Origin: Magnetococcales bacterium
GTDB lineage: Bacteria > Pseudomonadota > Magnetococcia > Magnetococcales > DC0425bin3
Direction: 5' to 3'
Assembly: GCA_015228935.1 (NCBI GenBank)
Contig: JADGCO010000001.1
Coordinates: forward strand, 148,103-212,102
DNA length: 64,000 bases
The translations under genes and the position numbers were made by a program. Below the pieces are notes generated by a model. That model was not told where the DNA came from, did no database searches, and worked only from the letters and a program-made list of their open reading frames with translations. This document shows, one piece after another, positions 23,647-53,771 of this stretch; the stretch's first letter is position 1, and each line of letters begins with the position of its first letter.

Positions 23647-24240
23647 TCAAGCGGGAGAAAACACCTGACCCTTGCCGGCTTTGGAATGAAGAACATCTTT
23701 TTCCTGAGATGTCCTATGCTTCATTCCCGGCAACACATTCTGCCGTTCATTTTTTTGCTTCTGGAGTTCTTCATTGCATAATGTTAAAATTTTTAACGTT
23801 TCCAGATACATTTGACGATTTTTTCCCATCGCCGGAGAGTGCAGCATAGCGATCATGATCGCCTGGGCTTGAAGAAAACGTTTCTTGGGCAACAATTCAT
23901 TTTGAATGCGCTGAAGAAAATCCTCAATCTTGTCGGCAGGCGCACGTTGCAAAAGCCGGATGGATGCATCTTGATTTTGTTCGGGTTGGTCCTGCAAAAA
24001 CTTTTTTGCCGCCTCCACGAAAGCGTTTCGCAAATAGACGATCAAAGCTTGCCAATCCGGGAAGGGAGGCATGGCAGACACTGGTTGAAAATTGCCGTTG
24101 GCAAGCAATTGATTCATGTCTGAGTCACTGATCCAGGGGCATCGTTCCTTACTGTATGGTGGTCGCAGGAGCCGTAATTTTTGTTCCATACGCACCACGG
24201 CCCACCCATCTTCCACTGAACATGCCAATAATTCAATCAT
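23647..24240 (-). CDS. Hypothetical protein (197 aa), operon partner of the NACHT protein
   Basis: Complete ORF. Its ATG overlaps the upstream stop (ATGA at 24237-24240), and it ends 17 nt before the NACHT gene start. I recognise no motif. The central and C-terminal part looks helical and is rich in charged residues and Gln. Confidence 0.6.
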   Translation of the reverse strand: MIELLACSVEDGWAVVRMEQKLRLLRPPYSKERCPWISDSDMNQLLANGNFQPVSAMPPFPDWQALIVYLRNAFVEAAKKFLQDQPEQNQDASIRLLQRAPADKIEDFLQRIQNELLPKKRFLQAQAIMIAMLHSPAMGKNRQMYLETLKILTLCNEELQKQKNERQNVLPGMKHRTSQEKDVLHSKAGKGQVFSPA

Positions 24241-25079: not shown

Positions 25080-25566
25080 CTGCTTGCATCCCTGATTGGA
25101 GTCACGATTCCGAAGGGATGAAATCCATGGTCAGCCTGTCTGAAATTTTGATTTCACTCATGCGGACGGCGGTTATTTTATCATGAATTGATCGTCCGTC
25201 AAGATTTTAATTTTCGTTTGTGTCCTATTTCCAGAATCCAATCGCGACGGAAGCATATTTGAATGCCAGCCCGCTGATTAAACTTTATGCAGTGTCCTGG
25301 TGTGGGGAAGTTGGGTGGAATCTCCAAAAGGCAGACAGCACTCGCTCCAATTAAATGGCATATTACTTGCTTGAACCATGGCATCGGGTCTGATCGGGTT
25401 GAATGTTTGCTGGGTCTCATCTAAGATAGTGAAGAGAGTTCATTTTACGAACTGTGTAGCCACCAGTGTGGAGAGTGAGTGAATATTATGATCAGGGGGG
25501 AATATCCATCAGCCCTGGCTGGCTTGGTCAGGATATTTCAGATCATGAATAGACACTCAAACCTAG

Positions 25567-27228
25567 ATGAATAGATACGCAAAAATCTGGATATGGTGCG
25601 GTTTTGGTCTGCTGGCGATGGCCTTACTGGTTGCTCTGGCCATGGTCAGCAACAATTTTCCGGCGTTCTCTTATCTTCACTACCTGGACATCATCGGACT
25701 GACAGGGGGGGCCATTTTCCTTCTGATTGGCTTGTTTCTCCAGGAAAAGAACACTCTGTCCCACCAGGAAATCAACAGGTTTTGTGATGATCTGACTGCG
25801 GCCTATATGCGTCTGGAGGCGCGATTGCAGGCAACCCGGTCACTCACCCTGAGCGTTCGGGATGCCATCGTCGCCTGCGATGAGCGTGGCATGATTAATT
25901 TTTGGAATCAAGGAGCGACCGCCCTGTTTCACCACGCCGAGCCGGAGGCCATGGGACGCTCCGTGGAAATCCTGATGCCGGAACGGTCTCGGGAAACGTA
26001 CCGGCAAAAATTCAAGCAAGTCAAAACCAACCCAAATTCCATGACCGGGGGGAAGATTCTCGATCTGACGGCTTTGCGCAAAGATGGCCAGGAAATTGAC
26101 ATTGAAATGTCCCTCGCCGGCTGGCGCACCGAGGGAGAACAATTTTTTGTCGCCGTCATCCGGGATATATCCCAACGCAAACATCACGAAGCCTCTTCCG
26201 AGCGCATCCAGCAATCCCGGGTGGCCATCAGCGAACTTCTGCGCATCGCCCTCGAACCCATTACCTTGAAAGAACAACTGCAACAAGCCATGAACGTCAT
26301 TCTCTCCGTTCCATGGCTGACCATCGAGTCCAAGGGATCCATTTTTCTGTTTGATGAAGAGAGCCAGGAACTGGAGTTGATCGTCGAACACAATCTTTCA
26401 AAACCATTGCTGACCGCCTGCGCCCGTTTGCCTCTGGGATATTGTCTTTGCGGTCGGGCCGCCCAGAGCAGGGAAATCGTATACTCCAATGATCTGGACC
26501 ATCGGCACGATGTCACCTTTGACGGGATTCGACCCCATGGTCATTACTGTGTTCCAATCCTTTCCCAGAATCGTCTGTTGGGTGTGGTCAACATGTACCT
26601 GACCCATAATCACATCCAGGATCCGGAAGAGACCGACTTTCTCTGGGCCATTGCCAATACCTTGGCCGGTGTCATTGAGCGCAAGAAAGCCGAAAACCTT
26701 CTGTCACACCTGGCCCATCACGATACCTTGACCGGCCTACCAAATCGCAAGCTCTTTCTCGAACGGCTTGATCATGACATGGCCCGTGCCAAACGCATGG
26801 AATCGCTCCTGGCAGTCATGTTTCTGGATCTGGATAAGTTCAAGGAAGTGAACGACACCATGGGACACGAAGTGGGCGATCAACTTCTCATCGAAGTGGC
26901 CAGGCGTCTGAAAAGCTGCCTGCGCGAATCCGACACCATTGCCCGTCTGGGCGGCGACGAATTTACCGTCATTCTGACTGTCCTTCCCAAACCGGAGGGA
27001 GCTGTCATCGTCGCCAAAAAAATCATTGCTGCCCTTGAAAAACCTTTTTATTTTCCAGATAAAGAGTGTCATATTGGCTCCAGCATCGGCGTCAGCTACA
27101 ACGATTGGCCCGATGATACCCCGGAATCTCTGCTCCATAAGGCCGATACCGCCATGTATGCCGTCAAGCGGGAGGGAAGAAACAATTTCAAGATTTTCGA
27201 TACCAGCATGGAAATTGCGGACAGATGA
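25567..27228 (+). CDS. Membrane-anchored PAS-GAF-GGDEF diguanylate cyclase
   Basis: 553 aa with two N-terminal TM helices and a PAS-like segment (RDAIVACDERGMINFWNQGATALF). A GAF-like segment follows, then a GGDEF domain with an intact RLGGDEF and the upstream HDTLTGLPNRK. Confidence 0.88.
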   Translation: MNRYAKIWIWCGFGLLAMALLVALAMVSNNFPAFSYLHYLDIIGLTGGAIFLLIGLFLQEKNTLSHQEINRFCDDLTAAYMRLEARLQATRSLTLSVRDAIVACDERGMINFWNQGATALFHHAEPEAMGRSVEILMPERSRETYRQKFKQVKTNPNSMTGGKILDLTALRKDGQEIDIEMSLAGWRTEGEQFFVAVIRDISQRKHHEASSERIQQSRVAISELLRIALEPITLKEQLQQAMNVILSVPWLTIESKGSIFLFDEESQELELIVEHNLSKPLLTACARLPLGYCLCGRAAQSREIVYSNDLDHRHDVTFDGIRPHGHYCVPILSQNRLLGVVNMYLTHNHIQDPEETDFLWAIANTLAGVIERKKAENLLSHLAHHDTLTGLPNRKLFLERLDHDMARAKRMESLLAVMFLDLDKFKEVNDTMGHEVGDQLLIEVARRLKSCLRESDTIARLGGDEFTVILTVLPKPEGAVIVAKKIIAALEKPFYFPDKECHIGSSIGVSYNDWPDDTPESLLHKADTAMYAVKREGRNNFKIFDTSMEIADR

Positions 27229-40045: not shown

Positions 40046-40586
40046 TCACCAACTTTTCTTCCCGGGAAAGCCCTATATCCGTGCGAACGCTCCTGGCATG
40101 CTCCACCAGTTTGACCGCCAAAACAGAAAATTGTTTGTGAACGTGAATCCGTCGCAAACCTTCCCGGACACCCAGGACAACGGTACCAGTCTACCCATGA
40201 AGCGGCAAGGCCGCAACCAAACGGAAAAGTCGGCATGGGTGTTGCTGTAGGATTGTGTCGGCTATACCATCAAGGTGGCAACCCGCTTCAAGGGTGCCCT
40301 GGGGACATGGGCCCGGCAAGGCTGGAGAAACACCATCCCTGCTCCCGGTCATCCTGGTCACTCCTGTTGATCATTGGTGACGGATACCTTGATGATCCTT
40401 TGGAACTCCTGCAAAATCCCCGGGTACTCTCTCTTGTTCCCACAGGTGATGGGCATGGTACCGGGCCTGGACTCCATCTTATCCCGGTATTTTTCCGGCC
40501 TGGGGGATCCTGGTCATTGGCATTGGAGTGCTGATTATCAACGAAGTGTTTCATTGACGGTTGTTGCGGCAGGGAGATGTGCGTCC

Positions 40587-42287
40587 ATGATACGTTTTTT
40601 CTCGACCATTGGCGGCAGGATGTTGATCCTGGTAGGTGGGGTCATTCTGTTGAACGTAGTCACCATGGTCGCCTTTTATACCAAAAGTCAGGAGCAAAGC
40701 ATCCTGTCGCAAAACGAGGCCAATATGGGCAAGATGGCCGAAGCGGTTTCCCACGGCTTGCAGTCAGTCATGCTGGGCGGTTACGCGGATATTGCCCACG
40801 CCTACGCGGATGGCCTCAAGCGGGTGCGGGATGTGGAGGATTTCCGTATTCTCCGGATGGATGGCAACGAAGCCTTTCAGGACAATAAAACGATTCACGA
40901 TGTCAACACACGGATGGGGAGCGATGAATTCCAGCCACGAAAGGAGGAACGGGCAGTGCCGGTGTTGGCCAGGGATGACGCAAACCTCAAAAAGGTGTTG
41001 CAGGATAAAAAAACATCGATCTTGTATCATGGCGGCGACAATAAAGAAAAAAAATTGACCTTTCTGCTGCCGATTCTGGCGGAAAAGTCCTGCTACCGCT
41101 GCCATGGCAAAGAGAATCCTGTACGCGGAATATTGAAACTGACCACCTCGCTGGCATCGGTACACGAAGCGATCAGGGCCACCCGGATCCAGGCCACCAT
41201 GATCCTGGCTGCAAGCATTCTGGGAAGTCTTCTGGTGGTTGGTTTCCTGATCCGGTATTCACTGGTGCGGCCGATTGATCGGGTCACTTCGGCGATGGCA
41301 AAGGTTGCGCAGGGGGACTTTTCGCAGCAGGTTCCAGTCATGGGGATGCAAGAGTTGGAGAGGATGGCGAGCAGTTTCAATGTTATGACACGCGAGGTGC
41401 TGGAGGGCTATTCCCACCTGACCGAGGAACAAAACAAGCTGACCACGATCATCCTGTCGGCGCGAGAGGCAATTGTGGTGTCCAATGCCGCCGGGGTCGT
41501 GGTCATCGTCAACCCGGCTGCCGAACGGATCCTGGAAAAGTCGGATCGGGAATTGATTGAAGGCGGCTTCCTCGCCGTGGTGGATGACCCCGCCTATGTG
41601 CGCGCCTTTCTGGACAAGAACGGGGCAGACATGCCCGATACCCTGGTCTACAAGGATCGGATCCTCAATTTCTATGCGGCGACCATTCAAAACAAGCAGG
41701 GAGTTACCATCGGCAGTGCGGCCCTGATCCGTGACATTACCGAGGAGAAGCGCCTGGAAGAGGCGTTGCGTCTGATGTCCTACACCGACAAGCTGACCGG
41801 TCTATACAACCGGCGGCGGTTGGAGGAGTTATTGAGCGGTGAATATAACCGGGCGCGCCGGTACAGTTTATCCCTTTCGGTTTTGTTTTTCGATGTGGAT
41901 CATTTCAAAAAATTCAATGATACATATGGCCACGACATGGGTGACAAAGTGCTGGAGGTGATCGGACATGTCGCCAAAAGCCATTTCCGGACCATGGACT
42001 ATGCCTGTCGCTACGGCGGGGAAGAATTTTGCATCATTTTGCCCAACACCGACGAGGAGGGAGCCTTTTCTTCGGCGGATCGTTTCCGGGAACGGTTGGA
42101 GAATACGGATATCAGCGGGATGCGCGTAACGTGCAGCATCGGAGTGGCCACCTTTCCCGAAGCCGCTGGAGAAAAATGGGATGAATTTCTCAAGCTGGCG
42201 GACAATGCCCTGTACGAGGCCAAGCGTCAGGGACGGAACCGGGTGGTGCAGTGGCGTGCCGGCATGACCGGCAAGGGCGTGCAGTAA
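40587..42287 (+). CDS. Diguanylate cyclase with a periplasmic CxxCH (c-haem, Tll0287/DUF3365-like) sensor, HAMP, PAS and GGDEF domains
   Basis: Track ORF trimmed to ATG 40587, with GGGAGA 10 nt upstream. TM1 is followed by a periplasmic domain of about 175 aa. That domain ends LPILAEKSCYRCHGKENPVRGILKL (CYRCH = 41091-41105). TM2, HAMP and PAS follow, then GGDEF with an intact RYGGEEF. Confidence 0.8.
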   Translation: MIRFFSTIGGRMLILVGGVILLNVVTMVAFYTKSQEQSILSQNEANMGKMAEAVSHGLQSVMLGGYADIAHAYADGLKRVRDVEDFRILRMDGNEAFQDNKTIHDVNTRMGSDEFQPRKEERAVPVLARDDANLKKVLQDKKTSILYHGGDNKEKKLTFLLPILAEKSCYRCHGKENPVRGILKLTTSLASVHEAIRATRIQATMILAASILGSLLVVGFLIRYSLVRPIDRVTSAMAKVAQGDFSQQVPVMGMQELERMASSFNVMTREVLEGYSHLTEEQNKLTTIILSAREAIVVSNAAGVVVIVNPAAERILEKSDRELIEGGFLAVVDDPAYVRAFLDKNGADMPDTLVYKDRILNFYAATIQNKQGVTIGSAALIRDITEEKRLEEALRLMSYTDKLTGLYNRRRLEELLSGEYNRARRYSLSLSVLFFDVDHFKKFNDTYGHDMGDKVLEVIGHVAKSHFRTMDYACRYGGEEFCIILPNTDEEGAFSSADRFRERLENTDISGMRVTCSIGVATFPEAAGEKWDEFLKLADNALYEAKRQGRNRVVQWRAGMTGKGVQ

Positions 42288-43610: not shown

Positions 43611-44687
43611 TCACTGTCGATGCTGGCCCAGAACGAGCCTTTTTTTGAAGTTTTTCGGCATCGATTTTTGGGGACTCTGGAGATTGGTCAACAGGAGATC
43701 CGGCTCCAGAATCCAGGTGGGTGGTTTTGGTTGGAGTCTGGCGCGTCCCTGGGTTTGCAGGCCAGCCGTATTCAGGTACAGATGAGTCACGTTGACTTGT
43801 TGTCCCTGTCTGGCGGCCTGGACGACCAGATGGTCAATGACCAGGGGTTCCGTGGCCGGGAGGGGCGTGAGTCCTGCAAATTGAGCCAGTTGCCGAAGGA
43901 TGCCCCGGGTCTCCTGGACCAGAAAGGGGAGTGAATCCGGCAGGATGGATGGCCCACCGGGCAGAGGAGGGGCGGTCACCTGTGCCAGCCAGCCGTGCCA
44001 TGCCTCCTGACCCGGAGTGATATTCAACACCTCAAGTGTGGCATCCCTGGCCTCGATGCCTTCCACGGCCAGGGAGGATATCTGAACCCGGCCCGGACAC
44101 TGCGGGCTGCCGGTGGCATGCAGGCCGGAAAACCGGACATCATGCAGGGGGGGCAGATCCGGAATTCCTTCCGGAATTTTCTGGAGATTGCCTTCTGCCA
44201 CGGTGAGTTCCCAGCGATTGTCACCGGTACGGCGCAGGTTCAGGTTGTGCAGGGTGCCTTCCGGCGGGATCACCTTGTCAGCCTGGACCTCGATACTTTT
44301 GCCGGCCAGTCTGGCAACAACCCCTTCCAGACGCAGATCGTGAATCGGCAGCCGGACATCCTTGAGGGCCGGGGAGCGGGTCCAGAGAGCGATCAGGGCA
44401 GCGATGCGTTGTGGGTCACCCTGAAAATATTCAAGACGCAGCTCCACTTGCACAGGAGCCAGCGCATGGATCACCAGCCGGCCACGCATCTGCATGTCCG
44501 GTTCGTCCATTTTGAGAATTTGTTCCAGCAACTCGGACTTGGGTTTGGGTGCAAACGGAATCTGAACCGGGGGGGCAGTCCGGCAGGCCGAATCTCCCTC
44601 CGGCATGGGGGAGGGGGCGGCGGCCTGCACGGGTACCGGTCCGGTCAGTAGCAGATAAAACAAGAGGAGTCGGCTGGCAAAGGTCAT
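43611..44687 (-). CDS. Hypothetical secreted protein
   Basis: Track ORF trimmed to ATG 44687 (MTFASRLLLFYLLLTGPVPVQAAAP signal peptide). 358 aa, no recognised domain. Confidence 0.5.
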   Translation of the reverse strand: MTFASRLLLFYLLLTGPVPVQAAAPSPMPEGDSACRTAPPVQIPFAPKPKSELLEQILKMDEPDMQMRGRLVIHALAPVQVELRLEYFQGDPQRIAALIALWTRSPALKDVRLPIHDLRLEGVVARLAGKSIEVQADKVIPPEGTLHNLNLRRTGDNRWELTVAEGNLQKIPEGIPDLPPLHDVRFSGLHATGSPQCPGRVQISSLAVEGIEARDATLEVLNITPGQEAWHGWLAQVTAPPLPGGPSILPDSLPFLVQETRGILRQLAQFAGLTPLPATEPLVIDHLVVQAARQGQQVNVTHLYLNTAGLQTQGRARLQPKPPTWILEPDLLLTNLQSPQKSMPKNFKKRLVLGQHRQ

Positions 44688-44991
44688 GTGGAAAATCCAT
44701 GAATGTATTGGTTGGAATGCGATTGACTGTGGTAGAATTTTCCCCGGAAGGAGCGCATGACGACCACAGATGTGCTTGATACTCGGATGGTGGCAGGGAC
44801 CTGGTCCCGGAACGTTTTCCTGCCCTGCGCTGACACATCGCGTATTCTGTCGCAATCTGATGGATCAAGCGCAAGCAAGCAAGGAGAGAAATTGCAATAC
44901 GGAGAAGCTCTGATGGGCAATTTCAGTTTTTTATTAAAGGGAACGGCAATATAGTTGAATAATCCGAATTCTTATTCAAGGATCGTTTCAC

Positions 44992-46155
44992 ATGCGGCGT
45001 GATAGGACCGGCCAATATGTCACCAGCATTGCCGGAGGTGAGTCCGTCCAGGCCTTTGTGCCCAGCCCGTTGCCTCCTGTGCCGCCATTGGATCTGAGCG
45101 GTGAGCGACAGGAAACGCTGGAAAAGGCCACTTTGGCGTTAGGGCGTCTCGACAGCATTGCATGGCTTTTGCCCGATCCGAAACTCTATTTGTATTCCTA
45201 TGTGCGTCGCGAGGCGGTGTTGTCGTCGCAGATTGAGGGGACGCAATCCTCGCTTGCAGATCTGCTGTTGTTTGAGTTGGACGAGGTGCCAGGTGTTCCA
45301 TTCGATGATGTGGTGGAGGTTTCCAACCATGTCGCCGCACTGGAACACGGCGTGGCGCGGTTGCGGGAGGGATTTCCCTTGTGCAACCGGCTGGTGCGGG
45401 AGATGCACGCCAAACTGATGGCGCGAGGGCGCGGCAGCAACAAGGCTCCCGGTGAGTTTCGGCGAAGTCAGAACTGGATCGGCGGCACCCGTCCCGGTAA
45501 CGCCTTTTTCGTGCCGCCGCCGCCCCAGGAGGTCGAGAGGTGCATGGCCGCATTGGAGGAATTCATCCATGGCGCGACCGGGAAGATGCCGGTTTTGCTC
45601 AAGGCGGCTTTGGTGCATCTGCAATTCGAGACCATCCACCCCTTTCTGGATGGCAATGGACGGTTGGGGCGTTTGCTGATTGCATTGGTACTGCATGAAG
45701 GCGGTGCGCTGACGCAGCCGTTGCTCTATTTGAGTCTCTATTTCAAGCAGCACCGGTCATTGTATTATGATTTGCTCAATCGCGTGCGCCTCTCCGGGGA
45801 GTGGGAAGTCTGGGTGGATTTTTTTCTCGAAGGGGTGGAAGAGACCGCCAATGGGGCCGTGCAGACCGCCCGGCGGCTGGTGACGCTCTTCGAGCAGGAT
45901 ACCCGGCGCGTCCAGGGCAGTGGACGTGGGGCTTCCACCCTCTTGCGTGTTCTCGACACTTTGCGGCAAAGACCATTGTGCAGCCTGAACCAGCTTTGCC
46001 AGAATGCAGGCATCTCGTTCCCCACCGCATCCAAATCCATGCTGACCCTGGTGAACCTGGGCATCGCCCGCGAACTCACCGGTCAGCGCCGCAACCGAAT
46101 GTTTGTGTACGATGGATATCTCAATATCCTGAATGAAGGAGGTGATGCACTGTAA
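44992..46155 (+). CDS. Fic-family protein (AMPylase-type), with an N-terminal inhibitory-helix motif and a C-terminal wHTH-like region
   Basis: 387 aa. The Fic motif is HPFLDGNGRLGRLL. The upstream SSQIEGT fits the [ST]xxxE[GN] auto-inhibition motif. Confidence 0.9.
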   Translation: MRRDRTGQYVTSIAGGESVQAFVPSPLPPVPPLDLSGERQETLEKATLALGRLDSIAWLLPDPKLYLYSYVRREAVLSSQIEGTQSSLADLLLFELDEVPGVPFDDVVEVSNHVAALEHGVARLREGFPLCNRLVREMHAKLMARGRGSNKAPGEFRRSQNWIGGTRPGNAFFVPPPPQEVERCMAALEEFIHGATGKMPVLLKAALVHLQFETIHPFLDGNGRLGRLLIALVLHEGGALTQPLLYLSLYFKQHRSLYYDLLNRVRLSGEWEVWVDFFLEGVEETANGAVQTARRLVTLFEQDTRRVQGSGRGASTLLRVLDTLRQRPLCSLNQLCQNAGISFPTASKSMLTLVNLGIARELTGQRRNRMFVYDGYLNILNEGGDAL

Positions 46156-46191
46156 TATCGAGTAACCATCTGACCTGCAAAGCACGCTCAC

Positions 46192-48300
46192 TCAAAACCC
46201 GCTTTCCCGTATCACGAGGCTGCGGGCGGAGCGGTACATGGAGTCGAGAATGCTGAGGGGTTGACCGGTCAGATGTACCGTGCCGCGCAAAATGTGGAGC
46301 ATGCCGTGTGCGGGGGTCAGGTAGGGTTCGAGTTGGACGAGATAGAGGGCGGTGAGAGGAATGGCTTCGCCTTGGGCATTGGCCTTGGCGGGGATTTCCC
46401 CGCCGAGATGCGATCCCAGCCAGGGATGATGCAACTGTTTGGTGTTGGTGCTTTCGATGCGGGTGACACGTGCCCTCAGGGTGGGAAGATCACCCATTTC
46501 CGGAAAAAATTCCCCCTCGCCGCCAAACAATACCAGATCCCGGCGCGTCTCTTCCACATAAGCCTCGATGACCCAGCGTTGGAAATTGGCCAGTTCCAGC
46601 AGGGGTTCGGTCATGCCGATCCAGTCGCCGGGGTGGAGATGTTCCAGGCGATGGACCACCAGGCCGTCGGTTGGCGCGGTCAGGGTGAGTTGTTCCCGTT
46701 GCCGGAGAAGTCCCTGCTGTTCGGCAAGGCGGGAACTCAGTTTCTGGCGGATATCCCGGCGCTGATCGAGAAGATCGATCTGGACCGAGTGCAGGGAGAG
46801 TTGTTGGCGCAGAAGCGTGATTTCTGTCTGGGTCTGTTTGATCTTGTGGGTCAGATCGGGAGAGGAGAGACGGGCCAGGATCCGGCCTTGCTGCACCGTC
46901 TCCCCTTTGGTCACTTCCCAGGCGTCCAGGCGGGCGGGAACCGGGGCATACAAGGCTGGCGGGTGTTCGGGACGTAACAGGGCCGGGACTTCCACGCGGT
47001 GGTGCCAGGGGTGAACCAGGAACAAAATCAGGCCGGTGAAGAAGAGGGTGGTCAAGGTGGTATGGAGGTTGATATGCAGGCGCTGCCGCAATTGCCACCA
47101 GCTTCCCAGCTCCAGCATGACCGGACGCAGAATGAACCAACCCACTTCCACGAGCATGAGTACGACGCCCAGCAGCTTGAAGAAATAATGGTAGACCAGC
47201 AGGGCAATGCTCATGAACAAGACCAGCCGATAGGTCCAGGAAAGATACGCGAACAGAATCAGGAAAGGGCGGGTTTGATGCAGATCGGGTTCCGGATCTG
47301 GATCTCCCAGGCCCAATAAAAGTTCGCGCAGCCACCAGCGGCCCAGGGCACCGGAACGGGCATGGAGGTTTTGGACCTCGATCCAGTCGGAGAGCATGTA
47401 GTAGGCATCGAAGCGCAAAAAAGGACTGAGATTGACCGCCAGGGTCATGGTCCAGCCGCTGGTGGCCAGAAAAAAGGCGGCACTGCGGGCCGGACCATCC
47501 GGGAGGAAACTCCACAGCAGCGTGGCCCAGGAAGCCAGAACCAGTTCGGCGGCAATGCCGGCGAGTCCCACGATGACACGTTGTTTGCGTTCCGGCAGTT
47601 TCCAGACGGCGGTGACATCCGAGTAGAGGACCGGCCACATGACCAGAAAGGCCACTCCCATCGTCGGGACAGGACAGCCATGGCGTTTGGCGGCCAGGAC
47701 ATGGCCAAATTCGTGGATGGCCTTGGAAGCAAAGACGGCCAGGGCCATCATGATGGCCCCGTCCAGGGTAAAATGACTCGTCAGGGTGGCAAAAAATATG
47801 TCCCATTGGCGACTGACCAAGGTGATTCCGGCCAGGGTGACCACAGCCATGAAGAGCCAGAAGCCACGGGAAAAAGCCCACGCCATGGAGGGCAGAATGG
47901 CTTCCAGAAAACGATCCGGGCGCAGCAGGGGGACCCGGAAAAAAAGATAGGCGTGAAACAGGATCTGGTACCAGTTTTGTTGGGTTCCCGTCGCCTGGCG
48001 GTGCAGGCGGGCCAGATCGGACTTGCCCTGGATGCGGACCAGATTGTGGGTGGTCAGAAAACGGGCCACGTCCAGAACCTGCTCGGCCCGCACATGGACG
48101 GGGGTTTCGTGGGTGGCGCGGGCGGCAATCTGCTCGGCGCTGCCCATGTTCCAGCGGGAAAGAATTTCAAATTCGCGCCAGCCGATGCGAAAATAGTGGT
48201 TGCTGGCCGGGTCGTGGATGGTCCAGGTCGGGGCATGGTTGCGGGTCCGGGGTCCGGGGAAGAGGTGGAGTTCCTCCCGGAGAGGGGGGAGGGTCGTCAT
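46192..48300 (-). CDS. M50 (site-2-protease-type) membrane metalloprotease fused to a C-terminal HlyD-like periplasmic adaptor region
   Basis: 702 aa. HEFGHVLAAKRHG (HExxH inside a TM helix) and NLSPFLRFDAYY (NxxPxxxxD) are the two S2P/M50 motifs. A further TM helix follows. The C-terminal part has a lipoyl-like segment, a coiled coil and a beta-barrel-like segment (VTKGETVQQGRILARLSSPDL...LLRQQLS...). Confidence 0.75.
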   Translation of the reverse strand: MTTLPPLREELHLFPGPRTRNHAPTWTIHDPASNHYFRIGWREFEILSRWNMGSAEQIAARATHETPVHVRAEQVLDVARFLTTHNLVRIQGKSDLARLHRQATGTQQNWYQILFHAYLFFRVPLLRPDRFLEAILPSMAWAFSRGFWLFMAVVTLAGITLVSRQWDIFFATLTSHFTLDGAIMMALAVFASKAIHEFGHVLAAKRHGCPVPTMGVAFLVMWPVLYSDVTAVWKLPERKQRVIVGLAGIAAELVLASWATLLWSFLPDGPARSAAFFLATSGWTMTLAVNLSPFLRFDAYYMLSDWIEVQNLHARSGALGRWWLRELLLGLGDPDPEPDLHQTRPFLILFAYLSWTYRLVLFMSIALLVYHYFFKLLGVVLMLVEVGWFILRPVMLELGSWWQLRQRLHINLHTTLTTLFFTGLILFLVHPWHHRVEVPALLRPEHPPALYAPVPARLDAWEVTKGETVQQGRILARLSSPDLTHKIKQTQTEITLLRQQLSLHSVQIDLLDQRRDIRQKLSSRLAEQQGLLRQREQLTLTAPTDGLVVHRLEHLHPGDWIGMTEPLLELANFQRWVIEAYVEETRRDLVLFGGEGEFFPEMGDLPTLRARVTRIESTNTKQLHHPWLGSHLGGEIPAKANAQGEAIPLTALYLVQLEPYLTPAHGMLHILRGTVHLTGQPLSILDSMYRSARSLVIRESGF

Positions 48301-48306
48301 GTCGAT

Positions 48307-49680
48307 CTATATCCCGGTCATGCGGCGCAAGGCGGCCAGGGGGCGACGCAACAGATAGTGAAACAGGGACACTTCCTGTCCTGTGATCCGGGCCGTGCCA
48401 CGCAAACCAATGCGGGGCGGGGCAATCTCGCCCGCAAAACGGGCCGTGAGTCGATAGGCCAGAAATCCCTCGGGCGCGGAAGTGGGTCGAAAAGCGGATT
48501 CAACCAGGTGGGCCGGCAACGGTTGGTCCGGTTCGCTGTTGCTGAAAAAGTTGACTGCGGCATCGGGTTCCAGACGAATGGCATCCGTGACGGGGAGATG
48601 AATTTCCAGCTCCGTGGCATCCGGGTCGGCAATGACCAGGATGCGTTCTCCCACCGTGACCGGGCGTCCCAGCCAGTCGTTGACATCCTCGAACAGGGCG
48701 ATACCGTCCCGGCTGGCCCGGATGCGGATGCGTTCCAGGAGGTGTTCGACATGGGTCACTTCGGTGCGGCGTTGTTCGACCCGTCCCTGGAGCAGGGCCA
48801 GGCGAATTTTGCTCTCCTGATCGAGGACTGCTTTCTGGGCCTCTTGCCGGTATTCATTCTGGGCGGATTCCAGATCGGTGCGGGCCACATCCAGACGGTT
48901 GCGCAGGTTGGTGTCATCGAGGAGCAGCAGCAGATCACCTTTTTTGACCGTGCGGTTGGGACGCACCAGGAATTGATCGATCACCCCGTCCTGGGGAGAG
49001 CGGACCACAACCGGATCAATCGGAATCACCTCGGCAGGGGCCAGAACCGACATGTCAATCGGGAGAGAGAGTGAACCCGCCAGGACGGCCACCAGGAGCA
49101 GAAGAGGCAGACGGCGGATATCGGGCAGGGGACCGAATTGCAGACGGCGACGGGGTTGCAGTGCCCGCCAGGCGTGGGCATAACTTTCGGCCAGGATGGC
49201 AAGCAGCTCCTGGTCAGTCTGATTCCAGGCCGCTTCCCGGGCCAGCAGCATGCCGCCGGGACGGGCACCAGATGGCAGATTCAGGGGCAGCCACAACAAT
49301 TCGGCAGGCAACCATTCCGCCCAGGCGGATTGGTCGGTCTCCGGGAGGCTTTCCGGGGCAATGACGCGCACCTCCGCAGCATGGGACGACCGGTCCAAAG
49401 TGCCACACAATTGCCGCATCCAGGCCACGAACGGGACTTGTGGATCGATACGGAACAGACCGGAAATGGCCACCACCTCCCCTTGACCGGGGGCGTTTCT
49501 TTGCCACAGGATGGCCTGCCGGTAGGGGGTGAGCAGGTGGGTTTCATTGACCAGGACAAAGCCGAGGGCCTCAATATCCGGGGCATCACGGGCCATCTTG
49601 CCCAGTTCCAGGATCAGGCTCAGACTCCGCAGGCGAAATTGCTGGGAGTCGGGTGTGGTTTTGTGGGCGGTATCGGTCAC
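48307..49680 (-). CDS. HlyD-family adaptor protein with an extra N-terminal cytoplasmic domain of about 190 aa
   Basis: 457 aa. After a TM helix (LPLLLLVAVLAGSL) come VVVRSPQDGVIDQFLVRPNRTVKKGDLLLLLDD, a coiled coil and a barrel. The N-terminal domain is not recognised. Confidence 0.7.
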   Translation of the reverse strand: MTDTAHKTTPDSQQFRLRSLSLILELGKMARDAPDIEALGFVLVNETHLLTPYRQAILWQRNAPGQGEVVAISGLFRIDPQVPFVAWMRQLCGTLDRSSHAAEVRVIAPESLPETDQSAWAEWLPAELLWLPLNLPSGARPGGMLLAREAAWNQTDQELLAILAESYAHAWRALQPRRRLQFGPLPDIRRLPLLLLVAVLAGSLSLPIDMSVLAPAEVIPIDPVVVRSPQDGVIDQFLVRPNRTVKKGDLLLLLDDTNLRNRLDVARTDLESAQNEYRQEAQKAVLDQESKIRLALLQGRVEQRRTEVTHVEHLLERIRIRASRDGIALFEDVNDWLGRPVTVGERILVIADPDATELEIHLPVTDAIRLEPDAAVNFFSNSEPDQPLPAHLVESAFRPTSAPEGFLAYRLTARFAGEIAPPRIGLRGTARITGQEVSLFHYLLRRPLAALRRMTGI

Positions 49681-50570
49681 GGCCTCGATTTCCCGGTGGT
49701 TTCAGGGAAGATGACACGACCGTTCATGCCTGAAATCAGTTCAGGAAACTGGCCATCCAGGCGGCCAATCACCTTGATGGATTGACTGACGGCCTCCACC
49801 TGGGGTATGGGGCGCACCACCCGGGCCGGATAATTTCGACCGGTTTCATCGATATGGACCGTCAACGGCGTCCCGGGAAGCAGGCGGGAGAGCCAGCGGG
49901 AGGGCACGATCATGGCCAGTTCCAGATCGGCATTGTTCAGGATTTCCAGCAGATGCTGTCCCTCCGTCATATATTGGAATGGCTGGGCCTGTAACGCAAT
50001 GACCTGTCCGGGAAAGGGAGCGCGCACAAGACAGCGGTCCACCATGATCTTCTGGGTGGTGACTTCAGCCGTGTTGCGGGCCAGTTCGGCCTGGTCCAGT
50101 TCAAGTTCCAACGGGGAGAGGGAACCCAGCTCCATCAGGCGCGTGTGTACTTCCACCCGTTTTTGGGCGGCATGGACCTCCGCCAGGGCTTTTTGCAGAC
50201 GGGTATGAAACAGGGTGCAATCAAATTCCACCAGCAGTCTACCCCGGGGAAAGGCCTCCCCTTCAGTCACGTGGATGCGCTGGATTTTGGCAGTGATCTC
50301 GGCACCGAGTACCGTGCGTTGCCGGGAGGTCAATTGTGCCCGAATCTCTTCGGTGCCCCGGTCAATTCCGTCGGAACCGGTCTCCACAGGGACCGGAATT
50401 TTTTCCCTGCTGCTGGTGACCGAAGGTGCAGACGGTGCCGACCAGACCGGAACAACCGGGGGCAGCAGCAGACAACACACCAGCCAGCCAAGACGCAGAC
50501 CACCCCGGACAGCCATGGTCTGGCCGGCGGGAGAGAGGAGATTTTTCCTGATGGATCGGGACATCATCAT
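49677..50570 (-). CDS. HlyD/membrane-fusion-family periplasmic adaptor
   Basis: 297 aa. An N-terminal anchor is followed by GAEITAKIQRIHVTEGEAFPRGRLLVEFD, a short coiled coil and VRAPFPGQVIAL. It overlaps the next gene by 4 nt. Confidence 0.75.
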   Translation of the reverse strand: MMMSRSIRKNLLSPAGQTMAVRGGLRLGWLVCCLLLPPVVPVWSAPSAPSVTSSREKIPVPVETGSDGIDRGTEEIRAQLTSRQRTVLGAEITAKIQRIHVTEGEAFPRGRLLVEFDCTLFHTRLQKALAEVHAAQKRVEVHTRLMELGSLSPLELELDQAELARNTAEVTTQKIMVDRCLVRAPFPGQVIALQAQPFQYMTEGQHLLEILNNADLELAMIVPSRWLSRLLPGTPLTVHIDETGRNYPARVVRPIPQVEAVSQSIKVIGRLDGQFPELISGMNGRVIFPETTGKSRP

Positions 50571-50577
50571 GGGCGTT

Positions 50578-52326
50578 TCAAGGTGGGTTGACCCCTTCTT
50601 GGACAGGCAGGGGCCTTGACGGATTGTTCAGGGTAGCGGATTGGTTCGCTGGAGGAAAGGTGGGCGATGGGATATCCAGAATGAATGTCTCCGGTTCATG
50701 CCGTGGGGTTGCCTGGATGCGTTCCATGGACTTTTGCAGGAGTTTGCGGACCCGTTCGATCAGATCAGCCCGGGAATTGGGCACTGTCGTGGGTTCAGGA
50801 CCGGGAACCTGTATCAGGGCTTTTTCCCATTCAGTCAGATTTTTTTCAATGTTTTCACTCAGGGATTTCAGATCATTGTCGGTGGTGTTCATGGCAACCG
50901 GATCGGCTCCCACGGCCACCTGAAGTTGACCCAGGGCATTTTCCAGTTGAGCAAGAGCTTGATTTTGTTGCAGGCGGGTCAAAACGGCTTTGACCTTGTT
51001 GCGGATTTGTTCCAGGCGGTTTTCGGCGGCGTTGTTTTGTTGCGTGGTCACATGGTGCAGGATTGCCTGGTCGATGGTGCTGAGATCCATGGTCCGGCGA
51101 TACTGTTGCAAGGCGGTGAGATATTGCCGCCAGGCAATATGGGTTTGACTCAAAATGGCCATGTGCAGGGCCAGGCGACGGGTTTCGGTCACCGCTTCCT
51201 GTGATCTGGCCCATTGCAACCGCCAGGGGGCCGTGGCCAGATTGATCAGGTTCCAGGAGATGCGCAAGCCCGCTTCCGCCCAGCTCTGGTTGACCAGAAA
51301 GGTATTGCTTTCATAATTGCCGGTCAGGCTCATTTCCAGGCCGGGAAAGAGGCGGGCGATGGCTTTGCGGGTCTCCTCGCTGCTGATACGGGCCTGATAA
51401 TTTTCTTCACGCAACTCCGGGCGGTTGCGCAGAGCCAGTCGTTCCAGGGCGGCCAGGGGCATGTCAGAGGGGAACGCGGTCAGGGGGGGTTCAGTGGCGG
51501 CCAGTTTGAAGGTTTTTCCCGGTGGCACGTTCATCAAGGGAGACAACTCGATGCGGGCCATGGCCATGTCGTCACGCAATTTTTCCAACTGCACCACAAT
51601 TTCCAGAATCGAACGTCGATAGCGCAATATCTCCAGAGGGGGACGCAGACGTTCCTGGGCGATTTGCTCCAGGGCAACACGGGCCTCTTCGGCCTGTTGC
51701 AAGGCATCGGTAATCTCTTGGGCCAGGTTTTGTGCCCCCCAGGCACGCCAGAAGGCGTAACGAATTTCCCGGGTCAGGTTTTGAATCACCTTGCGCCGCC
51801 GCTCTTCGGTGATCAGCAACCGGTCCGCCTCCTGGCGTGCCCGGAAATAGCTGACGCCAAAATCCAGGACATTCCAGGTCATGGAGAGGTCGATCTGTTC
51901 ATGATCCCGATTCTGCGAGGTCGAGGACTCAAGGGAAATGCTGCCACTCTGGACCGATTGGCTGCTGGAAGCCGCCGCATTGGAGCGGCTCGTATAGCCC
52001 GCCGAAGCCAGCAACCCGGGCAGCAGCTCCGCCCGGGTCAGGTCCAGTTGATTTCTGGAAAGCATCTCTTCCATCAACTTCAGACGGTGATCAAGATTGA
52101 AGCTGATGGCCCGGGCCATGGCATCATAGATGGTCACGGTTTCCGGGAGGGGGGGCTGGTTTTCGAACATTTTAAGCTCATCGGCCTCGACGAGCCGGGC
52201 CTGCTCTGCCTCGGTCAAGGCCTGCGGTTTGACAATACAGCCAGCCGGCAGGATCAGAAGGAGTATCCAGCCCAACAGATACAGCGACAGGGAAGTGGCA
52301 GATTTGCAGGCAGACATCTTCGCCAA
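50578..52326 (-). CDS. TolC-family outer-membrane efflux lipoprotein with a Pro-rich C-terminal extension
   Basis: 582 aa with lipobox LILPAGC and two OEP-type helical repeats. The track start is TTG 52326; ATG 52317 is the alternative. Confidence 0.75.
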   Translation of the reverse strand: MAKMSACKSATSLSLYLLGWILLLILPAGCIVKPQALTEAEQARLVEADELKMFENQPPLPETVTIYDAMARAISFNLDHRLKLMEEMLSRNQLDLTRAELLPGLLASAGYTSRSNAAASSSQSVQSGSISLESSTSQNRDHEQIDLSMTWNVLDFGVSYFRARQEADRLLITEERRRKVIQNLTREIRYAFWRAWGAQNLAQEITDALQQAEEARVALEQIAQERLRPPLEILRYRRSILEIVVQLEKLRDDMAMARIELSPLMNVPPGKTFKLAATEPPLTAFPSDMPLAALERLALRNRPELREENYQARISSEETRKAIARLFPGLEMSLTGNYESNTFLVNQSWAEAGLRISWNLINLATAPWRLQWARSQEAVTETRRLALHMAILSQTHIAWRQYLTALQQYRRTMDLSTIDQAILHHVTTQQNNAAENRLEQIRNKVKAVLTRLQQNQALAQLENALGQLQVAVGADPVAMNTTDNDLKSLSENIEKNLTEWEKALIQVPGPEPTTVPNSRADLIERVRKLLQKSMERIQATPRHEPETFILDIPSPTFPPANQSATLNNPSRPLPVQEGVNPP

Positions 52327-52501
52327 TCAATTGACAAGGTGGCCAGACAGTCGCAACTTGAGAACCTCTGTAAAATCAGGTCCTCAGCCCAGGGCGTCCG
52401 GAATGCTGCCTTTGACATGCAGCTTCTGTTCATATCCTGGTGTTGCCCGCCATCTTGAGACTACGCAAATTTTCTGCCAATTATCCGGATGTTTTCATGT
52501 G

Positions 52502-53310: not shown

Positions 53311-53532
53311 TTATTCACCCGGCTTGATGATGTTCGATTCCGGAATTATCCGTCCTTGTTCTTCAGCCACATCCAACCAGGAGAGCATGGCTTCCCTGCC
53401 ATTGGCTAAGGCATCTTCGACCGTTTCTCCATCAGACATGCAACCGGGCAGGTCGGGAAATTCGATCAGATAACCACCACCTTCTTCCTTTTTCAGATGA
53501 CGGATCATGAAGGGAAAGTTTGGTTCGTTCAT
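53311..53532 (-). CDS. hicB: HicB-family antitoxin
   Basis: 73 aa. FMIRHLKKEEGGGYLIEFPDLPGCMSDGETVEDALANGREAMLSWL is the HicB/UPF0150 RNase-H-like fold pattern. It overlaps hicA by 4 nt. Confidence 0.8.
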   Translation of the reverse strand: MNEPNFPFMIRHLKKEEGGGYLIEFPDLPGCMSDGETVEDALANGREAMLSWLDVAEEQGRIIPESNIIKPGE

Positions 53533-53771
53533 TTTGCATTCTCGATTGTGTCGATCATTTCGACTAATTTGAAAATATAGACTGGTTTCAACGGTTTGTG
53601 AGCTGGAATACTCAAAATTTCTGTGACACTGGGATGAGAAAAAATCACATGGCTTCCACGAGGATTTCGCACGATCATTCCATATCGCTCGGCAAGAGTC
53701 TTGATTTCCTCAATTCGCCAGTCACGGGCACTGTTCCGCATTTTCTGGAGAACTTTTTGAGCTTTCGTCAT
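53529..53771 (-). CDS. hicA: HicA-family mRNA interferase toxin
   Basis: 80 aa. WRIEEIKTLAERYGMIVRNPRGSHVIFSHPSVTEILSIPAHKPLKPVYIFKLVEMI is the HicA/YcfA pattern, including the GSH motif. Confidence 0.75.
   Translation of the reverse strand: MTKAQKVLQKMRNSARDWRIEEIKTLAERYGMIVRNPRGSHVIFSHPSVTEILSIPAHKPLKPVYIFKLVEMIDTIENAK

What the first reader, a model, noticed from the sequence alone, without database searches (positions are those of the whole stretch)
46192..52326. TolC / HlyD / HlyD / M50-protease::HlyD operon with no ABC, RND or MFS pump
Four minus-strand genes are separated by 7 nt, a 4-nt overlap and 6 nt:
- an outer-membrane TolC-like lipoprotein with a Pro-rich tail;
- a 297-aa adaptor;
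- a 457-aa adaptor with an extra cytoplasmic domain of about 190 aa;
- a 702-aa protein in which an S2P/M50 intramembrane metalloprotease core (HEFGH, NLSPFLRFD) is fused to a C-terminal adaptor-like region.

The operon has every part of a tripartite envelope-spanning conduit except an energising transporter. The only polytopic inner-membrane component is the protease.

M50 proteases of the YydH type process exported peptides in the Bacillus yydFGHIJ system. This could therefore be a cleave-and-release export or signalling device whose cargo and energy source are unknown. I could not find a convincing small precursor-peptide gene in the flanks (52327-52501 or 46156-46191).
Basis: partly seen in the sequence, partly recalled or inferred. 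Interest (0 to 1): 0.55.

Follow-up and report, generated by a model that had tools for sequence, protein, structure and literature searches.

The report
Pump-less envelope conduit with leader protease
Four genes encode an outer-membrane channel, two periplasmic adaptors and a third adaptor fused to a membrane protease with a leader-peptide-binding domain but no energy-supplying pump; in most other bacteria this cassette sits beside a giant adhesin-like protein with a conserved N-terminal "LEPR" leader, which suggests an undescribed way of exporting or releasing such proteins.

Summary
Four intact minus-strand genes (46192-52326) are separated by 7 nt, a GTGA overlap and 6 nt. They encode a TolC-like OMF, a 297-aa adaptor, a GAF-like::TM::adaptor protein, and a 702-aa RRE::M50::adaptor fusion. 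AlphaFold/Foldseek shows the fused C-terminus is a true adaptor (MacA E 3e-12). The N-terminal 90 aa adopt a RiPP leader-recognition fold.

The cassette is not a one-off. The RRE+M50 module has 1,877 clusters (50% identity) at E<=1e-30, and the closest 150 are nearly all ~700-aa fusions. In 80 genomes from Pseudomonadota, Desulfobacterota and Nitrospirota, no ABC, RND or MFS gene is a conserved neighbour. The 64-kb window has no ABC domain at all.

The recurrent fifth gene is a giant (1,400 to over 3,400 aa) Ig/cadherin-repeat protein. It has a roughly 30-aa basic leader, a "LEPRxMFDGAA" motif (NCBIfam LEPR-XLL) and DUF4347. It lies next to the cassette in about 45 of 48 informative loci.

I infer leader-guided, protease-coupled export or release of giant adhesins. 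In this Magnetococcus MAG and its closest relatives the cassette is an orphan, so its cargo is unknown. I found no literature on the system.

The parts
50578..52326 (-). Outer-membrane factor (TolC-like). Probable lipoprotein (lipobox LPAG-C at residues 26-30). About 80-aa Pro-rich C-terminal tail. An alternative ATG start lies at 52317.
   Evidence: Pfam OEP, E 5.5e-29, two stretches. Single N-terminal hydrophobic segment at residues 14-32. Orthologues at 36-45% identity in 50+ loci.
49677..50570 (-). MFP1: short periplasmic adaptor (297 aa) with an N-terminal signal or anchor (residues 27-45).
   Evidence: Pfam HlyD_3 6.4e-13 and HlyD_D23 1.4e-8. NCBIfam RND_mfp 90 bits against a cutoff of 94.9. 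Conserved next to the OMF in homologous loci.
48307..49680 (-). MFP2: cytoplasmic GAF-like domain (residues 1-185), one TM segment (residues 188-209), then a periplasmic adaptor (residues 210-457).
   Evidence: Pfam HlyD_3 1.1e-14. TM segment. 6 of 20 aligned homologues hit Pfam GAF, best E 2.5e-6. Lies immediately upstream of the M50 fusion in nearly every one of 80 loci.
49126..49680 (-). GAF-like cytoplasmic domain of MFP2 (residues 1-185).
   Evidence: Inferred by homology. The window protein itself does not reach the Pfam threshold; 6 of 20 family members do.
46192..48300 (-). RRE::Peptidase_M50::MFP fusion protein (702 aa), the only polytopic inner-membrane component.
   Evidence: Pfam Peptidase_M50 2.9e-9 and HlyD_3 4.2e-8. 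NCBIfam daptide_HExxH 6e-44, below cutoff. AF2 model pLDDT 83.
48037..48300 (-). N-terminal cytoplasmic PqqD/RRE-like domain (residues 1-88; three strands then three helices).
   Evidence: AF2 pLDDT 90-96 over residues 10-90. The top six Foldseek PDB hits are all RiPP recognition elements: TbiB1 with leader (5v1u/5v1v; E 0.012-0.06, TM 0.66-0.68) and CteB (5wgg/5why).
47014..47916 (-). M50 intramembrane metalloprotease core plus extra TM helices (residues 129-429; about 7 TM segments, N-in/C-out). HEFGH is at 47701-47715 and NLSPFLRFD at 47407-47433.
   Evidence: Motifs invariant in the alignment. Hydropathy. Secondary structure of the model, including the re-entrant beta-hairpin at 214-225. 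Profile hits to MjS2P 3b4r (0.0018) and RseP 7w6x (0.03).
46195..46998 (-). Periplasmic adaptor (MFP) domain of the fusion (residues 435-702), with an alpha-hairpin at 481-506/508-536.
   Evidence: Foldseek: MacA 3fpp E 3e-12, plus EmrA, MexA, AcrA, ZneB and CusB. Profile against PDB: MacA/MexA chimera 1.3e-11, ZneB, HlyD.
52327..52501 (-). Upstream intergenic region (175 nt), the presumed promoter region of the operon. No precursor ORF.
   Evidence: Sequence read. The consensus scan finds nothing above chance on the minus strand.

Best explanation
The four genes form a conserved envelope-spanning module made of:
- a TolC-like outer-membrane channel;
- two periplasmic adaptors, one carrying a cytoplasmic GAF-like sensor domain;
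- a third adaptor fused to an inner-membrane M50 metalloprotease that carries a cytoplasmic RiPP-recognition-element (RRE) domain.

In most genomes the module is the operon partner of a giant Ig/cadherin-repeat, adhesin-like protein. That protein has a basic N-terminal leader of about 30 aa ending in LEPRxMFDGAA, then DUF4347, and a conserved C-terminal G(K/R)PxLxxQL motif.

Proposed mechanism:
1. The RRE binds the LEPR leader at the cytoplasmic face of the membrane.
2. The M50 active site cleaves the leader.
3. The three adaptor domains together bridge to the OMF, so the giant protein is exported, or tethered and later released, through a type-1-like conduit that has no ABC, RND or MFS energiser.
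4. The GAF-like domain provides regulatory input.

Shown: the gene content, the folds, the conservation, the adjacency to LEPR giants, and the absence of a linked pump. Inferred: RRE-leader binding, the cleavage, the export route, and the energy source. Candidate energy sources are co-translational threading, an extracellular Ca2+ folding ratchet, or the proton-motive force.

In this Magnetococcus MAG the cassette is an orphan copy. Its cargo is presumably encoded outside the 64-kb window.
For: - Domains and motifs.
- Adaptor fold of the fused C-terminus.
- RRE fold. The NCBIfam daptide leader-protease model covers RRE plus M50.
- GAF in the MFP2 family.
- Synteny: MFP2 then M50 fusion in nearly all of 80 loci, with OMF and MFP1 adjacent in most.
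- Giant repeat ORFs abut the cassette in 43 loci under the automatic criteria, plus L016 and L027 on inspection, out of 48 loci with at least 2 kb of upstream flank.
- The strict LEPR regex gives 11 hits in 80 loci against roughly 0.5 by my rough estimate of chance. All 11 lie at the N-termini of these giants.
- Giant proteins carry DUF4347 (E 1e-48 to 1e-55) plus Big_13, Big_5 and Ca_tandemer repeats.
- The leader matches NCBIfam NF012209 LEPR-XLL (20.8 bits, cutoff 17).
- Independent gene calls with Pfam show the five-gene unit without an ABC transporter.
- Starting from the cargo side: 3 of 4 LEPR-bearing DUF4347 proteins have the cassette or part of it adjacent. Of 2 DUF4347 proteins lacking the leader, neither does.
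- The RRE surface residues of the window protein are the family-invariant ones. This implies the same kind of leader is recognised here.
Against: - No cargo gene, LEPR motif or DUF4347 lies in the 64-kb window. The closest relatives (84% and 58% identity) are also orphan cassettes. For this locus the cargo assignment therefore rests on homology alone.
- Protein translocation without an ATPase or a known PMF-driven transporter has no precedent for a TolC-type system.
- The RRE Foldseek E-values are modest (about 1e-2).
- No experiment or paper supports cleavage of the LEPR leader.
- DUF4347 also occurs on RTX proteins, which presumably use classical T1SS.
Confidence: 0.55

Rival explanations
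1. The cassette is an accessory to a classical type 1 secretion system. An ABC exporter encoded elsewhere energises export of the giant protein. The M50 fusion, adaptors and OMF only hold the N-terminal LEPR/DUF4347 end and cleave it to release the surface-tethered adhesin. This would be a LapG/LapD-like retention-and-release switch, with the GAF-like domain as the signal input.
For: - Translocation needs energy, and none is encoded locally.
- DUF4347 also occurs on RTX-type proteins. A Vibrio LEPR-XLL protein has a C-terminal RTX region (PMC10868602).
- The leader contains a G/A-A-A/G-V stretch that recalls the LapG di-alanine site. This is my own recollection and I did not test it.
- GAF-like domain in the MFP2 family.
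Against: - Adaptors are normally co-encoded with their inner-membrane transporter. Here three adaptor domains and an OMF recur across three phyla without any transporter.
- Three cassette-linked giants scanned against Pfam show no HemolysinCabind/RTX repeats. Aligned C-termini of 40 giants instead share their own C-terminal motif.
Confidence: 0.2
2. One reading: the cassette cleaves the leader from a small ribosomal peptide (bacteriocin, RiPP or signal) and exports the product. On this view, orphan cassettes such as this one serve an unlinked or very small precursor gene.
For: - RRE plus M50 is the architecture of RiPP leader proteases. The daptide_HExxH model matches at 6e-44 and the RRE fold is supported.
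- This locus and its nearest relatives have no giant gene nearby.
Against: - No conserved small ORF or LEPR-like peptide in the window or in orphan loci.
- No RiPP-tailoring enzymes in the window or as recurrent neighbours.
- About 45 of 48 informative loci pair the cassette with giant proteins.
- The daptide model score of 150 is well below the cutoff of 300.
Confidence: 0.12
3. The cassette is a small-molecule or lipid efflux device, or an envelope-stress or regulated-intramembrane-proteolysis signalling device, unrelated to protein export. In this view the M50 domain cleaves a membrane regulator.
For: - S2P proteases classically cleave anti-sigma factors.
- Databases annotate the proteins as efflux adaptors.
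Against: - No sigma or anti-sigma genes, and no transporter, recur in the neighbourhood.
- An RRE domain indicates peptide-leader recognition.
- The strong linkage to LEPR giants would be left unexplained.
Confidence: 0.05

Closest known systems
Type 1 secretion systems for giant adhesins (LapA/LapEBC with LapG/LapD; SiiE; HlyBD-TolC)
   Same: - TolC-family OMF plus HlyD-family adaptor(s) spanning the periplasm.
- In homologous loci the cargo is a giant Ig/cadherin-repeat, Ca2+-stabilised adhesin-like protein encoded next to the apparatus.
- A protease acting on the N-terminal region is plausible.
   Different: - No ABC transporter is linked in 80 loci.
- The conserved signal is N-terminal (LEPR leader) rather than a C-terminal RTX-type signal.
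- The protease is an inner-membrane M50 enzyme fused to an adaptor, not a periplasmic cysteine protease.
- There are three distinct adaptor domains.
Peptidase-containing ABC transporters with HlyD adaptors (CvaAB-TolC, NHLP/Nif11 bacteriocin exporters, TIGR03794 systems)
   Same: The logic is the same: leader recognition and leader cleavage are physically coupled to an HlyD/TolC export route. There are weak NCBIfam hits to NHLM_micro_HlyD (1e-5).
   Different: - The peptidase is M50 (metallo, intramembrane), not C39 (cysteine, cytoplasmic).
- It is fused to the adaptor, not to an ABC pump.
- The likely cargo is thousands of residues long.
RRE-bearing M50 leader proteases of RiPP pathways (daptide MpaP family NF041824; B. 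subtilis YydH)
   Same: Homologous RRE plus M50 core (query residues 27-387 against model positions 19-359, E 6e-44). The catalytic motifs HExxH and NxxPxxxxD are shared.
   Different: - The score is half the family cutoff.
- No C-terminal adaptor is expected in those proteins (from what I know of the family; not tested here).
- They occur in Gram-positive RiPP clusters with tailoring enzymes and ABC exporters, per the literature, which I am citing from memory. None of these partners occurs here.
Tripartite efflux pumps with two different adaptors (e.g. TriABC-OpmH)
   Same: More than one non-identical MFP working with one OMF.
   Different: Those pumps have an RND transporter. Here the adaptors have no pump partner, and one of them is fused to a protease.

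Membership tests
Peptidase family M50 (site-2 protease) | An HExxH zinc motif in one TM helix, a second NxxPxxxxD(G) motif supplying the third ligand, and a polytopic membrane core. | tested here: met
   HEFGH at 196-200 and NLSPFLRFD at 290-298, invariant in 19 homologues. Pfam PF02163 at 37.1 bits against a cutoff of 27.2. Profile hits to MjS2P and RseP. About 7 TM segments.
Periplasmic adaptor / membrane fusion protein (HlyD family) | Lipoyl-like and beta-barrel domains with an alpha-helical hairpin. | tested here: met
   All three proteins hit HlyD_3 above cutoff. The fusion's C-terminus matches MacA, EmrA, MexA and AcrA structures (E down to 3e-12) and has a hairpin at 481-536.
Outer membrane factor (TolC/OEP) | Two OEP repeats. 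| tested here: met
   PF02321 at 101.7 bits, two stretches. It does not reach the TIGR01844 type_I_sec_TolC cutoff (18 bits against 225).
Type 1 secretion system | A dedicated ABC transporter partnered with the MFP and OMF. | tested here: not met
   No ABC NBD in the 64-kb window. Only 7-13 of 80 homologous loci have any ABC domain within 10 kb, and never at a fixed position. Pfam-annotated loci L084, L085, L086 and L090 have none adjacent.
RND or MFS tripartite efflux pump | An RND or MFS inner-membrane transporter encoded with the adaptor. | tested here: not met
   Clustering all flanking ORFs of the 80 loci gives no recurrent family apart from the four cassette genes and the giant proteins. 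Genes flanking the cassette in the window (40.4-56.9 kb) are Fic, an NTP-transferase, HicAB, a GATase and a GGDEF protein.
Daptide intramembrane metalloprotease (NF041824, equivalog) | Score at or above the curated cutoff (300 bits), in a daptide gene-cluster context. | tested here: not met
   150.6 bits against a cutoff of 300. No daptide-type tailoring genes in the window.
YydH of the yydFGHIJ system | Context with a YydF-like precursor, a radical-SAM epimerase (YydG) and an ABC exporter (YydIJ). | tested here: not met
   No ABC domain in the window; no small-precursor candidate (LEPR-like motif scan) and no radical-SAM domain among the ten flanking ORFs scanned. The 'putative peptide zinc metalloprotease' label is only a JGI/KEGG-style annotation.
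RiPP recognition element (PqqD-like) | A winged helix-turn-helix with a three-stranded sheet followed by three helices. It binds a leader as an added strand. | tested here: inconclusive
   Topology and fold are met: the top six PDB matches are all RREs, TM 0.66-0.68, probability 0.94-1.0, but E is only about 1e-2. Leader binding was not testable. The sequence profile finds no PDB relative.
LEPR-XLL giant-protein-linked cassette (the five-gene unit defined here) | An adjacent giant protein with a LEPR leader and DUF4347. | tested here: not met
   Absent from the whole window and from the closest relatives' loci. Present in about 45 of 48 informative homologous loci.

The most novel reading that the evidence does not exclude
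The cassette would be the core of a previously unrecognised protein secretion pathway of Gram-negative bacteria. An N-terminal LEPR leader is captured by an RRE domain. An M50 intramembrane protease fused to a periplasmic adaptor removes the leader. Giant adhesins are then threaded through a hetero-oligomeric adaptor/TolC tube with no ABC ATPase. Export would be powered by translation (co-translational export), by extracellular Ca2+-dependent folding, or by the proton-motive force, and gated by a GAF-like sensor domain.
Probability: 0.35. Interest if true: 0.9.

Novelty: new variant of a known kind. Interest (0 to 1): 0.72.

Why it matters
Every described TolC-dependent system is defined by its inner-membrane energiser (ABC, RND, MFS or PET). 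Here a large family replaces that energiser with a leader-binding intramembrane protease. The family has at least 1,877 clusters at 50% identity and is present in Azospirillum, Burkholderia/Trinickia, Methylomonas, Phytobacter, Nitrospirota, Desulfobacterota and magnetotactic bacteria. It is genetically tied to some of the largest bacterial proteins.

If the inferred function holds, three things follow:
- It assigns a function to the curated but unexplained LEPR-XLL motif. DUF4347 may share in it, although that domain also occurs without the leader or the cassette.
- It explains how a widespread class of giant adhesins reaches the cell surface or leaves it.
- It extends RRE-guided leader recognition from small RiPPs to proteins of thousands of residues.

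It also corrects the database labels "efflux RND transporter periplasmic adaptor", "multidrug transporter" and "biotin/lipoyl-binding protein" now attached to these genes. The hypothesis can be tested directly in culturable hosts.

Tried and rejected
- **Small precursor search.** Strict and relaxed LEPR-like regexes over all six frames of the window and of the orphan or giant-less loci gave nothing.
- **Cargo in the window.** tblastn with DUF4347, leader and C-terminal motif queries gave only hits with E>1.
- **Cargo elsewhere in the DMHC-1 genome.** This could not be tested.
- **ABC partner.** A Walker A plus LSGGQ motif scan and tblastn with five ABC queries both showed no conserved partner.
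- **Defence-system membership.** PADLOC gave no hits.
- **Sequence-only detection of the RRE.** The profile against PDB gave nothing meaningful, and phmmer of residues 1-440 against PDB gave nothing. Only the fold comparison worked.
- **Promoter and terminator scan.** Not above shuffled expectation.
- **Literature.** Ten searches found no description of the cassette. Terms covered M50/HlyD/TolC, "putative peptide zinc metalloprotease", site-2 protease with MFP/OMF, DUF4347, LEPR-XLL, BTH_II1339 and neighbours, daptide, and YydH+HlyD.
- **Regulatory S2P / anti-sigma reading.** Rejected for lack of recurrent regulators.
- **Pseudogene or relic reading.** Rejected because all four ORFs are intact and the invariant residues are retained.

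Full report
**1. Observation**

The ORF list shows four minus-strand ORFs at 50578-52326 (582 aa), 49677-50570 (297 aa), 48307-49680 (457 aa) and 46192-48300 (702 aa). I read the junctions directly. There are 7 nt between the first pair. The second pair overlaps by GTGA. The third pair is separated by 6 nt.

Pfam assigns the following:
- First protein: OEP, E 5.5e-29.
- Second protein: HlyD_3 and HlyD_D23.
- Third protein: HlyD_3 at residues 320-416, leaving about 190 N-terminal residues unassigned.
- Fourth protein: Peptidase_M50 (residues 185-285, E 2.9e-9) plus HlyD_3 (residues 539-620, E 4.2e-8).

HEFGH (196-200) and NLSPFLRFD (290-298) are present. Their key residues are invariant in an alignment of 19 homologues at 42-58% identity. 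The finding is therefore real at the stated coordinates.

The window comes from a Magnetococcus sp. DMHC-1 MAG, because the fusion protein has a 100%-identical database entry.

**2. Anatomy of the proteins**

An AlphaFold2 model of the fusion protein (pLDDT 83) shows four regions:
- Residues 12-84: three strands followed by three helices.
- Residues 129-429: a helical membrane core that includes the S2P-type re-entrant hairpin at 214-225.
- Residues 435-700: a beta-rich periplasmic domain.
- Residues 481-536: a two-helix hairpin within that domain.

Hydropathy gives about seven TM segments. This fits a cytoplasmic N-terminus and a periplasmic C-terminus.

Foldseek against the PDB matches the C-terminal part to MacA (E 3e-12), EmrA, MexA, AcrA, ZneB and CusB. 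A sequence profile finds the same adaptors, and also MjS2P and RseP around the HExxH helix.

I modelled residues 1-120 separately (pLDDT 85). All top six Foldseek hits are RiPP recognition elements. They are TbiB1 bound to its leader peptide (5v1u, 5v1v; TM 0.66-0.68) and the RRE of the sactipeptide enzyme CteB (5wgg, 5why), with probabilities of 0.94-1.0 and modest E-values of 0.01-0.1. In agreement, the NCBIfam model for the daptide leader metalloprotease aligns to residues 27-387 (E 6e-44). The 150-bit score is half the curated cutoff, so this shows homology, not membership.

For the 457-aa adaptor, 6 of 20 aligned family members hit Pfam GAF in the N-terminal cytoplasmic segment (best E 2.5e-6). 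It is followed by one TM segment at residues 188-209. The architecture is thus GAF-like::TM::adaptor.

The OMF is a probable lipoprotein with a Pro-rich tail.

**3. How common it is, and whether a pump is really missing**

The fusion has thousands of relatives of about 700-720 aa. A full HMMER scan with the RRE+M50 part (residues 1-440) against 1.84 billion cluster representatives finds 1,877 clusters at E<=1e-30 and 6,625 at E<=1e-10. Nearly all of the best 150 are about 700 aa long, which means they carry the fused adaptor.

A scan of one genome per GTDB species returned at least 580 confirmed loci. I analysed the best 80. They come from Alpha-, Beta-, Gamma- and Zetaproteobacteria, Desulfobacterota and Nitrospirota. 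They include isolates of Azospirillum, Skermanella, Methylomonas, Burkholderia/Trinickia, Phytobacter, Caenispirillum and Azonexus.

tblastn with the four window proteins shows that the GAF-adaptor gene lies immediately upstream of the fusion gene in nearly every locus. The OMF and the short adaptor lie upstream in the commonest order (OMF-MFP1-MFP2-M50 fusion), or downstream, or divergently.

ABC-like ORFs (Walker A plus LSGGQ) occur within 10 kb in 7 of 80 loci. ABC-domain tblastn hits occur in 13 of 80. Positions and strands vary. The 64-kb window has none. Clustering all flanking ORFs reveals no recurrent RND, MFS or other transporter family.

**4. The recurrent fifth gene**

The only other recurrent neighbour is a giant ORF. 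Open frames of 1,400 to over 3,000 codons have a Thr/Gly/Asp/Ala/Val/Ser/Asn-rich repeat composition. They end 40-450 nt from the cassette on the same strand, and many run off the 10-kb flank. They are present in 43 loci by automatic criteria. On inspection L016 and L027 also qualify. That makes about 45 of the 48 loci that have at least 2 kb of upstream sequence.

Where the N-terminus is inside the fetched DNA (11 loci), it always shows the same layout:
- 22-38 residues rich in Lys/Arg;
- a short xLLxA stretch;
- the motif LEPR(I/F/L/M)MFD(G/A)A(A/G)V.

The strict regex is expected about 0.5 times by chance in this amount of six-frame translation (my rough estimate). It occurs 11 times, and only at these N-termini.

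The motif matches NCBIfam NF012209, "LEPR-XLL domain", at 20.8, 15.8 and 12.4 bits against a cutoff of 17. It is followed by Pfam DUF4347 (E 1e-48 to 1e-55), then Big_13, Big_5 and Big_12 Ig-like repeats and Ca_tandemer repeats. The C-termini of 40 such proteins share a motif G(K/R)P(S/G)(L/F)xxQ(L/F), followed by an amphipathic stretch, 25-45 residues from the end. No HemolysinCabind/RTX repeat was detected in the three giants scanned.

Independent gene calls with precomputed Pfam hits confirm the unit:
- L085: DUF4347 giant (1,902 aa), OEP, MFP1, MFP2, M50 fusion. No ABC within 10 kb.
- L084: giant (3,428 aa), MFP2, M50 fusion, OEP, MFP1.
- L090: OEP, MFP1, MFP2, M50 fusion, then the giant.

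I also sampled from the cargo side:
- Three of four DUF4347 proteins that carry the LEPR-type leader have the cassette, or at least OMF-MFP1, adjacent (L089, L090, L091). The fourth (L092) has none within 10 kb.
- Two DUF4347 proteins that lack the leader have no cassette nearby. One is from Phormidium and is followed by an RTX protein. The other has an ordinary Sec signal peptide.

The sample is small. It suggests that the leader, not DUF4347, is what tracks the cassette.

**5. This locus**

The window has no LEPR motif, no DUF4347 and no giant repeat ORF. The largest ORFs are rpoB, rpoC and a 1,481-aa STAND-like protein. The cassette is flanked by a convergent Fic/DOC gene, an NTP-transferase gene and a HicAB pair.

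The closest relatives (84% and 58% identity, other Magnetococcales MAGs) are likewise stand-alone four-gene cassettes in different neighbourhoods. This Magnetococcales sub-clade is therefore an "orphan" form. All four ORFs are intact, and the family-invariant residues of the RRE, the M50 core and MFP2 are retained. I therefore expect a functional system whose cargo is encoded elsewhere. I could not test this because only the window is available.

**6. Mechanism**

Shown:
- An OMF, three adaptor domains, a cytoplasmic leader-binding fold and an intact intramembrane metalloprotease are encoded together.
- No energising transporter is encoded with them.
- In other genomes the cassette is tightly linked to giant proteins bearing a conserved N-terminal leader.

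Inferred:
- The RRE docks the LEPR leader at the membrane.
- The M50 site removes it.
- The polypeptide passes, or is held, in a tube built from the three adaptors and the OMF.
- The GAF-like domain regulates the process.

The energy source is unknown. An N-terminal signal combined with the absence of an ATPase makes two options worth testing: co-translational threading, and an extracellular Ca2+-folding ratchet. Both are speculation.

The main rival is that a distant T1SS ABC exporter does the work, and the cassette only retains and releases the adhesin in a LapG/LapD-like way.

**7. Comparison with known systems, and novelty**

The system works like a T1SS or a peptidase-containing bacteriocin exporter: leader cleavage coupled to a HlyD/TolC route. 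It fails the defining test for both, because it has no ABC transporter. It shares its RRE-M50 core with RiPP leader proteases, but it is not a member of the daptide or YydH families.

Ten full-text searches found no paper on the cassette. LEPR-XLL and DUF4347 appear only as passing annotations. Databases label the genes as efflux adaptors, multidrug transporters or biotin/lipoyl-binding proteins.

I rate it a new variant of a known kind, namely a tripartite, type-1-like envelope system. If export proves to be ABC-independent, it would be a new secretion pathway.

Noticed in passing
window 19184-23629 (-): A 1,481-aa single ORF combines a ParA/MinD-like P-loop, a calcineurin-like phosphoesterase, a NACHT/STAND NTPase and a C-terminal FGE-sulfatase (SUMF1-like) domain. 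This is an unusual fusion and may be a defence or signalling STAND protein.
   Followed up: partly
window 53311-53771 (-): A HicA toxin / HicB antitoxin pair lies just upstream of the cassette's neighbour. Together with the Fic/DOC gene (44992-46155, +), whose stop is only 36 nt from the stop of the M50 fusion, it suggests the cassette sits in a variable, island-like stretch.
   Followed up: partly
window 40374-42287 (+): A HAMP-GGDEF diguanylate cyclase lies 4 kb downstream of the cassette. GGDEF/EAL genes also flank relatives (L082/L083, L086, L088, L091). This hints at c-di-GMP control, which would fit an adhesin system.
   Followed up: no
L082 1972-4029 and L083 1728-3839: In the 58%-identical Magnetococcales relatives, the OMF carries a C-terminal SPOR (peptidoglycan-binding) domain in the position where the window's OMF has a Pro-rich tail.
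   Followed up: no
C-termini of giant ORFs in L003, L008, L013, L017, L020, L029, L060, L070 and about 30 more loci: A conserved C-terminal motif G(K/R)P(S/G)(L/F)xxQ(L/F), followed by an amphipathic stretch, lies 25-45 aa from the end of the LEPR giants. I know of no curated model for it. It could be a second recognition signal or an anchoring signal.
   Followed up: partly
L088 10001-17610 and L087 10001-11176: DUF4347 also occurs without the LEPR leader. In Phormidium it precedes a 2,012-aa HemolysinCabind (RTX) protein. In another genome it follows an ordinary Sec signal peptide. Neither has the cassette nearby.
   Followed up: partly
L016 3368-7195: Two tandem OMF paralogues lie between the giant gene and MFP1 in an uncultured gammaproteobacterium.
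   Followed up: no
L006 and L010 (Skermanella), L023 (Paramagnetospirillum): Only the MFP2 and M50-fusion pair is present. No OMF, MFP1 or giant gene lies within the 8.5 kb upstream (nor within 10 kb downstream in L006 and L010). The two-gene core can therefore be separated from the rest of the cassette.
   Followed up: no
window 24001-26000: There is a local GC dip to 0.458 against about 0.55-0.59 elsewhere in the window. I did not examine it.
   Followed up: no
window 43611-44855 (-): An ORF of about 360-414 aa with an N-terminal hydrophobic, signal-like segment has no Pfam match. It lies just beyond the Fic gene.
   Followed up: no
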